Virus record (IMG/VR): IMGVR_UViG_3300005613_002762 | Span: 85,191 to 149,190 of that record | Length of the DNA stretch: 64,000 nt | Reading direction: 5' to 3' (one strand) | Origin: a virus | Shown: positions 3,869 through 43,060 of the stretch, piece after piece | How positions within the stretch are numbered: the first letter of the stretch is position 1 | Layout of the letters: every line of letters starts with the position of its first letter | Position numbers and translations under genes: made by a program | Notes under the pieces: generated by a model | Databases searched by the model: none | What the model saw: only the letters and a program-made list of their open reading frames with translations | What the model was told of the DNA's origin: nothing

Positions 3869-5797
3869 ATGGCAGTCGATATTAATAGTGAATTAAAAAA
3901 AGCAGCCAATAAGACTAATGTTTATAAAACCTATAAGGAATATAAACAAGGATATGACGATTTAAAAAAGAAGGCCGGAGACTCGCAAGAACCGGCAAAT
4001 AAGTTTTTGTCAAATCAGTTAGGTAAATTTGTTGAAAATAGAAAAAAACATACCTCAAACGCAAAGACTTTCATTGATGAACTAATAACTCAACTTAAAG
4101 AATTAAAAGGGTCGGGATTAGAAACCGATACATTAATAAAAAGAATTTTTGTTAATTCATTAAAAAAAATTAAACCAGAACTTAAGGATTTAATTATTAG
4201 TGAGGCTCAGAAGGCTTTAGCGTGTAGTAATTTACAAGAATATCAGTTCAACACCACTTATTATATACCAGTTAAATCTGTTGATTTATTTGGTATTTTG
4301 GAGTCATCACCTCAAGAACGAGTTGGTAAGTTATTTTACGAAAAAGACCCAATTTCATTTAATTCTTTTCCTTTTTCCATGAATAAAGAATTATATGACA
4401 GAATACAAAATTTAAATCAACCATATACCGCAGTTGCAGGAACCGATTATTTAGGAACATCACAACAAAATTTATTTGACATCAGTTATGTTGAAAGTTA
4501 CTTTGACATTCCAACTCAACAAACCATACAAGGTAGCTTTTTTAAAGTGGATTTAAAACCAAGACAAACAGCACCTGTTATTGATGAATTTTTAAATGAC
4601 TACTATAGCACAATAGACATATTAGATTATAAAACATTTTTTACAAATTTAACTGATTACGTTACAGGGGCAATATCTTTTAGTAGAGGTGATGGTAAAT
4701 TAAAATTAGCATCAATTCAAAAGTCACTTATGATAATGCAAAGAATTTTGGGATTATGTTCAGATTCAAATAAAGAAATAAATGTTGGTGGGACATCTAA
4801 AGTATCAGAAGTTGACAACATTGACGAATCTTTCTATGAATTTACTGATATCGATTTAAGAATAATAGATCAAATCACATCTGATATTAAGTTAGGTGTC
4901 GTTGAATTTGAGGATTGTGATAATATAAAAGTTCCCATGAATGTTGATGCGGTTTTAACAGCATTAGATGATTTAGTATTTAATGAAGATACTTCGGATG
5001 TTAATGAAATTAATAACGCTTTAGGTGTTATCTATCCTGTAGTTGATGAGGACCCTACTTTCAAACTGGCAATCGATGCTGGGTTCTTTCAACAATTTAT
5101 AAAAGCACTAACTAATACTGTTTTATCACCAAAGGCAGTATTACCGATTATGATTGCAGCTGGTATGGTAAATCAACCAATTTTCAATCAAATAGGTAAT
5201 TTGGAAGATTTTTTAAAAAGATTTAAAAATTTCTTTAATGAATTTTTAACAAAAATCGCATCAGTTTTTACAAAGGCCGTATTTGACGAACTTAAAAAAG
5301 AAATTAAAGTTTTGGTAAGTCTTCTTTTGAAGGATATTGCAGATGAAAAAACTAAAAAGAAATATCGTATGATTTTGTCTATTGTTGCAATTTTACCAGC
5401 ATTAACTCAAGTGGTTAAAGATTTTAGAGAATGTAAAAGTGTCTTAGATGAATTATTACAATTGTTAAATATTGGTGTTAGAAAACGACTTGACGTTTTA
5501 TCTGCTGCGGGTGGTGATTTACCATTACCACTTTTACTATCCGCAAGACTCTTAGATGGTTATTCGCCGACAAGATCTTTTTTGAATACGGTTCAAAATT
5601 TACAAGAGTTAGGAATACCAACAGGGCCAATGCCAGATGGAAGTCCAAATAAGTTTTTAGCATCAATAAAAGCAATGATTGACGGTAATTCACAAGAAAT
5701 TGCGGAAAATGGAAAAGTCGCGATCGGAATAGGTCCATTAACAATTACTCCTGCGGGAGTTACAATACCAAAAGATGCATATGGAAAGTTCATTTAA
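3869..5797 (+). CDS. Large hypothetical protein, probably virion/baseplate-associated
   Basis: 642-aa ORF directly upstream of the spike gene. Confidence 0.5.
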   Translation: MAVDINSELKKAANKTNVYKTYKEYKQGYDDLKKKAGDSQEPANKFLSNQLGKFVENRKKHTSNAKTFIDELITQLKELKGSGLETDTLIKRIFVNSLKKIKPELKDLIISEAQKALACSNLQEYQFNTTYYIPVKSVDLFGILESSPQERVGKLFYEKDPISFNSFPFSMNKELYDRIQNLNQPYTAVAGTDYLGTSQQNLFDISYVESYFDIPTQQTIQGSFFKVDLKPRQTAPVIDEFLNDYYSTIDILDYKTFFTNLTDYVTGAISFSRGDGKLKLASIQKSLMIMQRILGLCSDSNKEINVGGTSKVSEVDNIDESFYEFTDIDLRIIDQITSDIKLGVVEFEDCDNIKVPMNVDAVLTALDDLVFNEDTSDVNEINNALGVIYPVVDEDPTFKLAIDAGFFQQFIKALTNTVLSPKAVLPIMIAAGMVNQPIFNQIGNLEDFLKRFKNFFNEFLTKIASVFTKAVFDELKKEIKVLVSLLLKDIADEKTKKKYRMILSIVAILPALTQVVKDFRECKSVLDELLQLLNIGVRKRLDVLSAAGGDLPLPLLLSARLLDGYSPTRSFLNTVQNLQELGIPTGPMPDGSPNKFLASIKAMIDGNSQEIAENGKVAIGIGPLTITPAGVTIPKDAYGKFI

Positions 5798-33249: not shown

Positions 33250-33332
33250 ATATTTATAAATATATTGAATAATACAAATCTTTGTATTATATTTGTATTA
33301 TAGTTCTTTGAAAATAGTCATTTAAGATATAT

Positions 33333-33751
33333 GGGCCTATATCGGATTTGACGGGCGTTGGTTGGATAAAAGAAGCATGTAGGGACTAAGTTAATCTCTT
33401 TAAAAACTGACTTAGAAAACAACTGGCAATGTGCTAAACAAAATGGAAACTCTTGGTTTACTAAGAGGTTCTGAAGTTACTGTAGCTTAATAAGATACGG
33501 AAACGGGGGGTCGGTCAGACAGATAACCTAGCAACAGAAGTCGTAGATGAGTTGGTTTTCACTCTAAAAGAAAACAACGGTCTCGTTCAGAGGGCTACCG
33601 TAACAAAAGTGAACTCGACACAGTTTTTGGTAACAATGTCAAAATAGGAACCAAATATTTTGGAAGGTATGAAAAACCTTAACCTAAACATGTAGTTGTC
33701 TTTTTGACAAAACGAGCCGGACGAGGGAGTCGGAGCCCTCTAGGTCCACCA
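33333..33751 (+). ncRNA. ssrA: tmRNA
   Basis: 5' GGGCCTATATCGGATTTGAC pairs with 3' TAGGTCC-A-CCA (G3:U70 alanine identity). 'aactggc' resume context; tag frame 33425-33493 GNVLNKMETLGLLRGSEVTVA**. Confidence 0.92.
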
Positions 33752-33755
33752 ATTG

Positions 33756-33788
33756 ATCCCATCATTTAATTATGATGGGATTTTTTTA
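33756..33788 (+). terminator. tmRNA terminator
   Basis: atcccatcat-ttaatt-atgatgggat followed by a T run. Confidence 0.8.
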
Positions 33789-33859: not shown

Positions 33860-34810
33860 TGTTTTTGCCGGTCGCTCCATCTTTTTAAAAAAGAAACGCT
33901 GAGATTACACGTTTGTTGCGAGAACCTTTAGAGTCATTATTGTTTCTACTCTTATCCACTTTCTTTTGGAAAGTATTTCTCAGTGTTGGTTATTTAGGTG
34001 AACCACTCCTTGAGATCTTATCTACACTCTTACTACTTGACTCTCTTCGAGGATGCCTCCCCAACTCGTCCTTGCGGGATTAGAGATCTTTGGTAAAAAT
34101 ACACTTGGTCTTGGGAACCTCATGTGCCACGGACAGCCCGTGACTAAGTAAACACCTTTCGACAAGATCTGACAGACACTTTTCCTTATTTTATTAATTA
34201 ATTTGACTTAATACAATAGTCATAAGTTTGTGTCGTGGATTATCGAAGTAGTGGTCTGCCAACCGAGCCAACCCATTTTTTGAACGAGTCGATACTCAAC
34301 TACTCCGTGAAATGTCCCCATTTCCATATTTCAAGACTACTTCGAAACTAACCCCTTGGTAGAAGTTGGTTAAGGTTAGTAACGACACCACTCGTACACT
34401 AACATACCTTTCGGCTTTAAGTATCCTTTTATATTGGGAAACGCAATAATGAAATCGGATAATCTCATGTTTTGCAATATCCCTACGAGTTATTCCTATT
34501 GTTGTTCCCAACTCAACTGAACGACCCACATCGCCCAATCATCTAACCACTTTCCCTACAGCGTTGCCCTCGGTACTAAAGGTTAAACGGTATCCCGCTT
34601 GTGTACTCAAGCTCCTAAAAGAAGCCGCAAATCATCTAACACAAATGACTCACTTTATCCTACTTTCGTAGTTTATTTTATGGACCATACACAGCCCAAT
34701 ATCTTTATCATTCAAAGATGGAAATTTTATTCCAATTACTTGTCAAAGAATCTGACAAAACTTTTCCTGAACGGATAATCTATTTCTTCAAAGAACGTTT
34801 CGGACTTTTC
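33860..34810 (-). ncRNA. Large (~900-950 nt) structured ncRNA, GOLLD-like candidate
   Basis: No credible ORF, GC-enriched, many GNRA hairpins and long-range helices; own tandem promoters, boxA-like site and terminator; next to tmRNA/tRNAs. Family assignment is tentative. Confidence 0.75.
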
Positions 34811-34914
34811 CGATTTGTTTTACAAAGTTAAGACATTTATTTTGATCTGTCAAGTACTTTGTGAACTTTTTTTTTAATTTTTTTTCGGTTGTTTCCGATT
34901 GTTTTACAAATGTA
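34788..34914 (-). promoter_or_regulatory. Tandem Bacteroidota-type promoters plus boxA-like site for the large ncRNA
   Basis: TAACTTTG (34823-34830) and TACATTTG (34907-34914), each followed by taaaacaa(a)tcggaa; GTTCTTTGA at 34788-34796. Confidence 0.7.
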
Positions 34915-34925
34915 AAAAACTTTTT

Positions 34926-35102
34926 TTAATTATTCAAGTCCTTTACAATATTTTTTTCTACATACACATCATATGTTCCGTAGAATCGTGCTCTTAATTG
35001 TGCAAACTCCAAATTTGATGTCCACAATGTTTTTCCGTTTGAAATATATGAATACATCTCAACGTCTTTAACTTCTTTTTCTTGTTTTATTTCTTCACTC
35101 AT
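34926..35102 (-). CDS. Small hypothetical protein (58 aa; not in ORF track)
   Basis: MSEEIKQEKEVKDVEMYSYISNGKTLWTSNLEFAQLRARFYGTYDVYVEKNIVKDLNN; TATTTAT at ~35135. Confidence 0.55.
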   Translation of the reverse strand: MSEEIKQEKEVKDVEMYSYISNGKTLWTSNLEFAQLRARFYGTYDVYVEKNIVKDLNN

Positions 35103-37607: not shown

Positions 37608-37641
37608 AAAAAAGTTAGTTTATAAGTTATTTGTTTGTTTG

Positions 37642-37715
37642 TGGTCCCTGTTGGGATCGAACCAACCACCTACTGATTATGAGTCAGTTGCTCTAACCGA
37701 ATGAGCTAAGAGACC
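37642..37715 (-). tRNA. tRNA with CAU anticodon (Ile2 or elongator Met)
   Basis: GGTCTCTTAGCTCATTCGGTTAGAGCA-ACTGA-CTCATAA-TCAGT...GGTTCGATCC; no encoded CCA. Confidence 0.9.
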
Positions 37716-38973: not shown

Positions 38974-39169
38974 ATTTATTTGTAGTTAAGTAGTTGACAC
39001 ACACTCTCGTTTCACCATCTTATGTCAACAGGTTAATGCACTTAACGAGTTTCCCTTTTCTTACCACCACAATATTTTAAATCAAAGAACTTTTTCCCTC
39101 TCGTGTGGGGGTGAGTCCACCATCACATTTTCTCACCCCCGTTTGTTTTACAAATATAAGAACTTTATT

Positions 39170-42310: not shown

Positions 42311-42337
42311 AACATTCAAAGAACTAGTATAAATATA

Positions 42338-43060
42338 CTAACTATTATATAATTTGTCAATCAACTCAACATCTATTGGTGAAAATTCTGTAGTTGTTGT
42401 CCAACCTTGATAAAAGATACTTTCAGGATATCTGTATGAATCATTACATAACCCCAAAGATTGAGTTAATTCTTCACGAAGTAAGTGTTTTTGGGCATCG
42501 ATTTTAGTTGTTCTGAAAATATCAACATAAATTAATGAGTAATCTCTATAAATTTCAAAATAACCCCAATTATGAACCAATAACTCCTCACTAACCTGTG
42601 GGTATAACTTATCAAATGTTTTGTAATCACCCAAATAAATAAAAGTGTTGGCTTCCGATTTATTTGAAACTATCTCAATATTAATTGTTTCGATAATATC
42701 GTTAAGTTCCCCAACAATACGATCCAATTCAGTCATTAGGTAATCTTTTTTGTGACCGTGAACGTAAATCTTAACATCTTCAGTTCGTTTAAAAACATTA
42801 TGAGATTTACCGTCAAATTCACTACCTAATGCGATTTCATTAAAATAAGTATTAACCTCTTTTGAATAATGTTTTTCTTTTTTGATCGGTTGAGATTCAT
42901 CATTATTTACTAATGAGTTATTTGGTGAATTATTTTCTATAGAATTGAAAATAACCCCTAACTTACCAACAATTTTATCTTGATCGGATTTATCTAAAAG
43001 ACAAAATAAGATGAATAATACTATTGAAATACCAAAAACTCGATTTAAAAACTTTCCCAT
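42338..43060 (-). CDS. DUF2927-like membrane-anchored protein
   Basis: N-terminal TM; 'YFNEIALGSEF', 'HLLREELTQSLGLCNDS...SIFYQ'. Confidence 0.7.
   Translation of the reverse strand: MGKFLNRVFGISIVLFILFCLLDKSDQDKIVGKLGVIFNSIENNSPNNSLVNNDESQPIKKEKHYSKEVNTYFNEIALGSEFDGKSHNVFKRTEDVKIYVHGHKKDYLMTELDRIVGELNDIIETINIEIVSNKSEANTFIYLGDYKTFDKLYPQVSEELLVHNWGYFEIYRDYSLIYVDIFRTTKIDAQKHLLREELTQSLGLCNDSYRYPESIFYQGWTTTTEFSPIDVELIDKLYNS

What the first reader, a model, noticed from the sequence alone, without database searches (positions are those of the whole stretch)
33860..34914. ~950-nt ornate non-coding RNA with its own rRNA-style transcription unit, convergent on tmRNA
Seen on the minus strand: no credible ORF and raised GC. 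Hairpins with GNRA loops (CUAC-GAAA-GUAG, GCC-GAAA-GGU, AAAUG-GGGA-CAUUU, CC-GCAA-GG) and other hairpins (CACGG/CCGUG, ACUUUC/GAAAGU). Nested long-range helices: 10-bp UCGAAGUAGU/ACUACUUCGA (34336-34345 with 34243-34252), GUGUCGU/ACGACAC, CUGAGA/UCUCAG. Two tandem TAnnTTTG promoters, a boxA-like site and a terminator. Known: GOLLD and ROOL are giant phage RNAs of unknown function found near tRNAs. Inference: a GOLLD-like or new giant RNA that is highly expressed from host promoters.
Basis: partly seen in the sequence, partly recalled or inferred. Interest (0 to 1): 0.85.

Follow-up and report, generated by a model that had tools for sequence, protein, structure and literature searches.

The report
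Phage GOLLD RNA with rRNA-style leader
The stretch encodes a full-length GOLLD RNA, a known giant phage RNA that self-assembles into a cage, so it is not a new RNA family; the only fresh point is a conserved promoter and leader that resemble those of bacterial ribosomal RNA operons.

Summary
The RNA is real, but it belongs to a known family. Rfam's GOLLD model (RF02032) matches window 34307-33896 (-) end to end at 308 bits, against a gathering score of 150. The 400 nt upstream form the matching 5' domain. More than 50 phage contigs share it, and it aligns by eye with the env-38 GOLLD solved by cryo-EM (PDB 9MEE).

On 56 homologues, 122 of 190 predicted pairs show compensatory changes.

The "rRNA-style unit" holds up at sequence level:
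- There are two tandem TTGA-N19-TAnnTTTG promoters.
- A covarying hairpin follows, then a near-invariant GTTCTTTGA.
- An intrinsic terminator closes the unit.

The GTTCTTTGA motif sits at a fixed distance upstream in 63 of 77 GOLLD loci. It also precedes this phage's tmRNA and two tRNA units, and it resembles motifs in Bacteroidota 16S leaders. An earlier first-reader note in this scan, on this same genome, had already flagged the motif.

Family novelty is nil. The leader is a modest new lead on how GOLLD is made.

The parts
34907..34937 (-). Distal promoter P1: TTGAAT (34937-34932), 17-nt spacer, TACATTTG (34914-34907). The -35-like box overlaps the end of the upstream 58-aa ORF.
   Evidence: Pattern TTGA-N18-20-TAnnTTTG gives 8 hits in the window against 2.9 expected. 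Sequence read. Tandem upstream promoters are also present in many homologues.
34885..34898 (-). Small hairpin after P1 (UCGG-AAACAA-CCGA), a partial duplicate of the P2 leader hairpin.
   Evidence: Read from the sequence. The direct-repeat match TTTGTAAAACAA(A)TCGG is.
34823..34853 (-). Proximal promoter P2: TTGACA (34853-34848), 17-nt spacer, TAACTTTG (34830-34823). The inferred start of transcription is about 34819-34816.
   Evidence: This block is 70-83% identical across 61 homologues even though the RNA core is only about 70% identical in the distant ones.
34800..34813 (-). Leader hairpin in the boxB position (UCGGA-AAAG-UCCGA).
   Evidence: A hairpin is present in 44 of 44 homologues, with compensatory variants such as UCAGGA/UCCUGA, CUUGGU/ACCAAG and UCUCA/UGAGA.
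34783..34796 (-). boxA-like element GUUCUUUGA(AGAAA).
   Evidence: Near invariant in homologues. Found 734-814 nt upstream of the 3' motif in 63 of 77 loci, against 1 in control windows. Four of the 7 exact copies in the 149-kb record precede stable-RNA genes. Similar motifs occur in Bacteroidota 16S leaders.
34700..34777 (-). Leader-closing helix (UAUC 34777-34774 with GAUA 34703-34700; UCA 34770-34768 with UGA 34710-34708) around a variable insert (34765-34711). It lies upstream of the part present in the solved env-38 construct.
   Evidence: The helix is 3-6 bp with compensatory variants (UCAG/CUGA, UCUCU/AGAGA, CAGGU/ACCUG, UUGGU/ACCGA, UCGAUU/AGUCGA). The insert is 8-71 nt long in 43 homologues. 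Conservation dips at 34765-34720.
34308..34699 (-). GOLLD 5' domain, about 390 nt, env-38 type.
   Evidence: blastn finds it at 70-89% identity in more than 70 viral loci. It is collinear with the start of the env-38 construct, which begins AUGGCCGCUAUGGUC...AAAUAAAUACGAAAGUAGGAUAAAGUGG.
33896..34307 (-). GOLLD conserved 3' domain (Rfam RF02032, model positions 1-416).
   Evidence: 308.3 bits, E 2.5e-87, gathering score 150.
34188..34230 (-). A/U-rich variable linker inside the 3' domain. It corresponds to the disordered J13/15 linker that faces the cage interior.
   Evidence: Conservation falls to 0.32 here. The Rfam alignment shows an unpaired A/U-rich stretch. Linker description from PMC12286853.
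33832..33856 (-). Intrinsic terminator: AGGGAC-UUAGUU-GUCCCU followed by U7.
33265..33782 (+). Context: convergent tmRNA unit with the same layout. Promoter TTGAAT-N-TATATTTG (33265-33295), GTTCTTTGA at 33303, tmRNA 33333-33751, terminator 33755-33782.

Best explanation
Window 34699-33896 (-) encodes a full-length GOLLD RNA of the env-38 type, carried on a large phage whose promoters point to a Bacteroidota host.

Shown:
- It is a member of Rfam GOLLD.
- Its two-domain secondary structure is under selection.
- It lies in a dedicated unit: two tandem TAnnTTTG promoters, a hairpin, GUUCUUUGA, a short closing helix, the RNA itself and an intrinsic terminator.

Inferred from solved relatives: the RNA self-assembles into a closed homo-oligomeric nanocage. 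A 14-mer like env-38 is my guess at about 0.6. The A/U-rich linker would face the interior.

Inferred from the leader, at about 0.55: the nascent hairpin plus GUUCUUUGA acts like the boxB-boxA leader of rRNA operons. It would load host NusB-S10 and the other Nus factors onto RNA polymerase. The untranslated transcript of about 1 kb would then escape Rho termination, be made at a high rate and fold co-transcriptionally. The phage's tmRNA and two tRNA units carry the same signal, which would make a small stable-RNA regulon.

What the cage does is unknown. The constant linkage to tRNA genes, and here to a tmRNA, favours a role in managing the translation machinery during infection. The confidence of 0.9 applies to the GOLLD identity and the anatomy of the unit; the sub-claims carry the lower odds given above.
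For: - GOLLD model hit of 308.3 bits over model positions 1-416.
- Homologues score 207-326 bits, including huge phage LR756502 and Acinetobacter phage vB_AciJM_313.
- The 5' domain is shared at 70-89% identity by more than 70 viral loci.
- 190 consensus pairs, 122 with compensatory changes, covariation term -37 kcal/mol.
- GOLLD-model helices pair in 99.7% of cells; 0 of 500 shuffles reach this.
- MFE z-score is -3.2.
- The 5' domain is collinear with the env-38 construct sequence.
- The phage carries tRNAs and a tmRNA nearby. The record is 149 kb and CheckV rates it 51% complete.
- Leader: conserved promoter block; hairpin in 44 of 44 homologues with compensatory changes; GTTCTTTRA at a fixed distance in 63 of 77 loci against 1 control.
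- Four of 7 exact genomic copies lie just upstream of stable-RNA genes, against 1.8 copies in total expected from shuffles.
- Tandem TAnnTTTG promoters, each followed by a hairpin and (G)YTCTTTGAAA or GTTCTTTAAAA, lie upstream of 16S genes in Chitinophagaceae and Pedobacter. The same motif is seen in a Bacillaceae rrn-like leader and 89 nt before an Ignavibacteria 16S gene.
- Cage formation by GOLLD: PMC12286853 and PMC12990946.
Against:
- Nus binding is untested. No boxC was identified.
- In the tmRNA and tRNA-Ser units the motif starts only 5-7 nt after the -7 box. It would therefore sit at the very 5' end of the transcript, or could act as DNA.
- GOLLD loci in Acinetobacter phage vB_AciJM_313 and in huge phage LR756502 show no such motif within 1.5 kb, so the leader is not universal to GOLLD.
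- Bernardetia 16S leaders show only a weak match.
- Oligomer number is inferred from sequence likeness judged by eye, not computed.
Confidence: 0.9

Rival explanations
1. The RNA is GOLLD, but the conserved GTTCTTTGA is not a Nus-loading boxA. It would instead be a promoter-proximal DNA element, a site for a phage-encoded regulator, or a 5' processing signal shared by the phage's stable-RNA genes.
For: In two of the four units the motif lies 5-7 nt from the -7 box. Its distance to the promoter ranges from 5 to 60 nt. It sits 8-22 nt upstream of the mature tRNA-Ser and tmRNA 5' ends, where processing occurs. No boxC was found. It is absent near GOLLD in two non-Bacteroidota-type phages.
Against: The same or near-same motif lies in 16S leaders of several Bacteroidota and of a Bacillaceae genome, downstream of their promoters and hairpins. 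Those genomes are cellular, so a phage-specific factor is unlikely. The order hairpin-then-motif matches the boxB-boxA order of rrn leaders (established knowledge; PMC10250234 abstract).
Confidence: 0.35
2. It is a new family of giant RNA that only resembles GOLLD.
For: The Rfam model covers only the 3' 412 nt. The 5' 400 nt has no Rfam model of its own.
Against: There is a full-length model hit at twice the gathering score. GOLLD is defined as a conserved 3' domain plus a variable 5' domain. The 5' domain here is collinear with that of the solved env-38 GOLLD.
Confidence: 0.01
3. It is a decayed protein-coding region or chance structure with no function.
For: An 80-aa TTG-start ORF exists at 34296-34538 (-).
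Against: One-base indels fall inside that ORF across homologues (alignment A1). 122 base pairs are kept through compensatory changes. More than 70 loci are conserved.
Confidence: 0.01

Closest known systems
GOLLD RNA, env-38 (Rfam RF02032; cryo-EM PDB 9MEE, Kretsch et al. 2025, PMC12286853)
   Same: The full 3' domain matches the model. The 5' domain is collinear in sequence. Total size is about 800-830 nt. An A/U-rich internal linker is present. The element is phage-borne and lies next to tRNA genes. Some homologues in the set also follow a tRNA-Met, as env-38 does.
   Different: Here the RNA sits in its own promoter-to-terminator unit, convergent with a tmRNA. The conserved leader (hairpin, GUUCUUUGA, closing helix) lies upstream of the part used in the solved construct, and the two GOLLD papers searched do not mention it.
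Streptococcus agalactiae GOLLD (PDB 9L0R, dodecamer; PMC12990946)
   Same: Same family and the same conserved 3' domain.
   Different: The Sag RNA is about 700 nt and lacks P9, P11a-c and P21b. Its host is a Firmicute. The RNA here has the longer env-38-like 5' domain.
rRNA operon leader (tandem promoters, boxB-boxA-boxC, Nus antitermination complex)
   Same: Tandem promoters, then a hairpin, then a U-rich conserved motif close to the one in Bacteroidota and Bacillaceae 16S leaders, ahead of a long structured untranslated RNA.
   Different: No boxC and no leader-trailer helix were identified. The unit is phage-encoded. Nus binding is untested.
ROOL and OLE RNAs
   Same: Both are large ornate RNAs, and ROOL is also phage-associated and cage-forming.
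   Different: Neither family, nor group I/II introns or RNase P, gave a hit at gathering threshold.

Membership tests
GOLLD (Rfam RF02032) | Covariance-model score above the curated gathering score over the conserved 3' domain | tested here: met
   308.3 bits against 150, model positions 1-416 of 416, E 2.5e-87.
GOLLD (Rfam RF02032) | 3' domain helices maintained by covariation | tested here: met
   For example, the first helix of the model shows CG:37, GC:14, AU:5 at one pair.
GOLLD (Rfam RF02032) | A structured but more variable 5' domain of about 400 nt, giving a total of about 800 nt | tested here: met
   34699-34308 carries covarying helices. It is collinear with the env-38 5' end, judged by eye.
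GOLLD (Rfam RF02032) | Located in a phage or prophage near tRNA genes | tested here: met
   The source is an IMG/VR virus record. A tmRNA is adjacent and six tRNAs lie 2.8-7.5 kb away.
GOLLD (Rfam RF02032) | Self-assembly into a homo-oligomeric nanocage | not testable with these tools
   Known for env-38 and Sag GOLLD. Inferred here by homology.
GOLLD (Rfam RF02032) | Transcript accumulates during lytic growth | not tested
rrn-type antitermination leader | boxA motif like that of the host clade's rRNA leaders, between the promoter and the structural RNA | tested here: met
   GTTCTTTGA at 34796-34788. Compare GCTCTTTGAAA, GATCTTTGAAA, GTTCTTTGAAA and GTTCTTTAAAA upstream of 16S in Chitinophagaceae and Pedobacter.
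rrn-type antitermination leader | Hairpin (boxB) immediately upstream of boxA | tested here: met
   Present in 44 of 44 homologues with compensatory changes.
rrn-type antitermination leader | boxC element downstream of boxA | tested here: inconclusive
   A conserved AGAUUAUCC(G/A)UUCAG follows, but it forms a helix with the region before the core. No reference boxC for Bacteroidota was available.
rrn-type antitermination leader | Binds NusB-S10 and confers read-through | not testable with these tools
   Needs biochemistry or genetics.
ROOL, OLE, group I/II intron, RNase P | Rfam model hit at gathering threshold | tested here: not met
   One search lists only GOLLD, tmRNA and tRNAs in the whole window.

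The most novel reading that the evidence does not exclude
GOLLD RNAs of Bacteroidota phages are made by hijacked rRNA-type antitermination complexes. The conserved hairpin plus GUUCUUUGA leader would recruit host Nus factors, which protect and chaperone the 1-kb transcript as it folds into cage subunits. The same signal would mark a phage stable-RNA regulon of GOLLD, tmRNA and tRNAs. If true, this would be the first handle on GOLLD biogenesis and a route to producing and perturbing it in vivo.
Probability: 0.5. Interest if true: 0.5.

Novelty: new member of a known kind. Interest (0 to 1): 0.3.

Why it matters
GOLLD's function is still unknown although its cage structure has been solved. This locus adds no new family. 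It does supply a clean, self-contained transcription unit and a set of more than 50 close homologues.

The conserved rRNA-like leader is not mentioned in the two GOLLD papers searched. It suggests that the RNA is produced in the same way as ribosomal RNA, and that it is co-regulated with the phage's tRNAs and tmRNA.

That idea can be tested directly with Nus-factor binding and reporter assays. It would also link GOLLD more firmly to takeover of the host translation apparatus.

Tried and rejected
- The genome-contig scan for TTTGTAAAAC-N10-40-GTTCTTTGAAA gave 51 hits. Most lie inside coding sequence and look like chance. Only L138, L149, L152 and L162 looked like real leaders, so the pattern was too specific to find host rRNA promoters. 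I therefore fetched 16S upstream regions directly.
- No boxA-like motif lies near GOLLD in Acinetobacter phage vB_AciJM_313 or in huge phage LR756502.
- The fixed-spacing pattern TTG-N19-TAnnTTTG was not enriched (5 hits against 2.5 expected).
- A literature search for the motif together with 'boxA' found nothing useful.
- ARAGORN did not call the tmRNA that Rfam finds.
- tRNA-Met at 37641-37715 has no promoter or leader. An ORF ends directly upstream of it.
- The env-38 sequence could be compared only by eye. It has no reference id usable in the tools, so no alignment or identity figure was computed.

Full report
**Identity.** A gathering-threshold Rfam scan of the whole window gives one strong non-tRNA hit inside the finding. 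GOLLD (RF02032) matches 34307-33896 on the minus strand at 308.3 bits, against a gathering score of 150, with E 2.5e-87 and model positions 1-416 of 416 (repeated on the whole record). No ROOL, OLE, intron or RNase P model reaches threshold. The window is part of a 149,190-base IMG/VR virus record that CheckV rates 51% complete. Its overall GC is 0.316. Neighbouring genes encode a ClpB/ClpC-like ATPase, M23 and M20 peptidases and a pyrimidine-dimer glycosylase.

**The 5' half.** The Rfam model covers only the conserved 3' domain of GOLLD. I collected 118 viral loci with a 3'-domain motif. blastn of the 493 nt upstream of the Rfam hit finds it at 70-89% identity in more than 70 of them. It also gives 70% matches in the 634-642 kb huge phages LR745206 and LR756502. 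LR756502 and Acinetobacter phage vB_AciJM_313 both carry unannotated GOLLDs at 275 and 207 bits.

Per-position conservation across 61 non-identical homologues shows three zones:
- a conserved core at 34710-33896;
- a variable stretch at 34765-34720;
- a strikingly conserved upstream block at 34880-34765.

The construct used for the cryo-EM structure of env-38 GOLLD (PDB 9MEE) begins AUGGCCGCUAUGGUC...AAAUAAAUACGAAAGUAGGAUAAAGUGG (supplement of PMC12286853). That is visibly collinear with our sequence from about 34697. The RNA is therefore an env-38-type GOLLD. This comparison was made by eye, because the published sequence has no reference usable in the tools.

**Structure.** On a 56-sequence, 930-column alignment (A1), RNAalifold predicts 190 pairs. 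Of these, 122 keep pairing through changes on both sides, and the covariation term is -37 kcal/mol. The single sequence folds with z = -3.2.

They pair in 82% of cells, which is indistinguishable from shuffles, and many cells are broken. The mutually exclusive helices of the GOLLD model use the same 3' strands. These are CGGAGUAGU/ACUACUUCG, the local CGA/UCG stem and UGAGAA/UUCUCA. They pair in 99.7% of cells with 100 compensatory cells, and 0 of 500 shuffles reach this. The apparent 10-bp helix arises because GAAGUAGU (34343-34336) resembles GGAGUAGU, the true partner. In the consensus that upstream copy pairs elsewhere in the 5' domain.

One-base indels across the only sizeable ORF (80 aa) exclude a coding reading.

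**Transcription unit.** Both upstream promoters have the same architecture, TTGA-N19-TAnnTTTG: 34937-34907 and 34853-34823. The tmRNA promoter at 33265-33295 shares it. The pattern gives 8 hits in the window against 2.9 expected. TAnnTTTG is the -7 element of Bacteroidota promoters; this is my own knowledge and was not tested here.

After the proximal promoter come four elements:
- UAAAACAAA;
- a hairpin at 34813-34800, present in 44 of 44 homologues with compensatory variants;
- the near-invariant GUUCUUUGA at 34796-34788;
- a short helix that closes a variable insert of 8-71 nt just before the core, again with compensatory variants.

The unit ends at an intrinsic terminator (33856-33839 plus U7). 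That terminator lies about 57 nt from the terminator of the convergent tmRNA.

**Is the leader rRNA-like?** Three lines of evidence bear on this.

First, GTTCTTTRA lies 734-814 nt upstream of the 3' motif in 63 of 77 distinct GOLLD loci. A control window of equal size downstream contains it once.

Second, the 149-kb record holds 7 exact copies, against 1.8 expected from shuffles. Four lie just upstream, on the same strand, of stable-RNA genes: the tmRNA (33303), GOLLD (34796), the tRNA-Phe/Asp/Glu cluster (39090, also with a preceding hairpin) and tRNA-Ser/Arg (42324). tRNA-Met has no promoter of its own. An earlier first-reader note from this scan (e1-5825440) reports the same four sites, and I reproduced them independently.

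Third, the regions upstream of 16S in Bacteroidota genomes show tandem TAnnTTTG promoters. Each is followed by a hairpin and then GCTCTTTGAAA, GATCTTTGAAA, GTTCTTTGAAA, GTTCTTAAAAA or GTTCTTTAAAA (two Chitinophagaceae and a Pedobacter). A Bacillaceae contig shows TTGACA-17-TATACT, a hairpin and TGTTCTTTGAAA. An Ignavibacteria contig has the motif 89 nt before its 16S gene. Bernardetia shows only a weak match.

The order hairpin-then-motif is that of boxB-boxA in rrn leaders (PMC10250234 abstract). Nus binding, a boxC and expression remain untested. In two units the motif begins only 5-7 nt after the -7 box. GOLLD loci in an Acinetobacter phage and in a huge phage lack the motif. I therefore put the antitermination reading at about 0.55.

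**Function.** GOLLD RNAs form closed homo-oligomeric cages: a 14-mer for env-38 and a 12-mer for the S. agalactiae RNA. Their variable linker faces the interior. They lie near tRNA arrays, and their function is unknown (PMC12286853; PMC12990946). By homology I expect the same here. The A/U-rich, poorly conserved stretch at about 34230-34188 would be the internal linker.

Neither of the two GOLLD papers searched mentions promoters, leaders or antitermination.

**Verdict.** The RNA is a known family member, so family novelty is nil. The conserved rRNA-style leader is a modest, testable addition to what is known about GOLLD.

Noticed in passing
window 33265-33782 (+): Phage tmRNA (Rfam 73 bits) that ARAGORN does not call. 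It has the same TTGA-N19-TAnnTTTG promoter, with GTTCTTTGA 22 nt before its 5' end, and its own terminator.
   Followed up: partly
window 39085-39160 (-) and 42316-42360 (-): The tRNA-Phe/Asp/Glu cluster and the tRNA-Ser/Arg pair each have a promoter followed by GTTCTTTGA. The cluster also has a 9-bp hairpin before the motif. tRNA-Met (37641-37715) has neither, and an ORF ends directly upstream of it.
   Followed up: partly
L120 1500-2410 (LR756502.1, 642-kb uncultured phage) and LR745206.1: Huge-phage records carry an unannotated GOLLD (275 bits) whose 5' domain is 70% identical to ours. A tRNA follows it directly.
   Followed up: partly
L121 980-1771 (Acinetobacter phage vB_AciJM_313, PX050566.1): An unannotated GOLLD (207 bits) sits inside a 16-gene tRNA array, between tRNA-Gln and tRNA-Pro. 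There is no boxA-like motif within 1.5 kb.
   Followed up: partly
L149 about 4540-4586 (-), MAG of an uncultured Bacteroidetes: A promoter TTATCTTTG, UAAAACAAA, a hairpin CUAAC-GAAA-GUUAG and GTTCTTTGAAA have the same layout as the GOLLD leader. No 16S, tRNA or GOLLD motif was detected downstream.
   Followed up: no
window 34239-34199 (-) and A1 columns about 573-600: A small hairpin inside the variable linker (UGACU...AGUCA here; UGGAA...UUCCA in relatives) appears to covary even though the linker is otherwise unconserved.
   Followed up: no
L072, L017, L117 (upstream of GOLLD): In these homologues a tRNA-Met lies directly before the GOLLD promoter block, as reported for env-38.
   Followed up: no
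window 34343-34336 versus 34305-34298 (-): GAAGUAGU and GGAGUAGU are near-duplicate strands 38 nt apart, and both can pair with ACUACUUC at 34252-34245. Only the second pairing is supported by covariation. A transient alternative pairing during folding is not excluded.
   Followed up: partly
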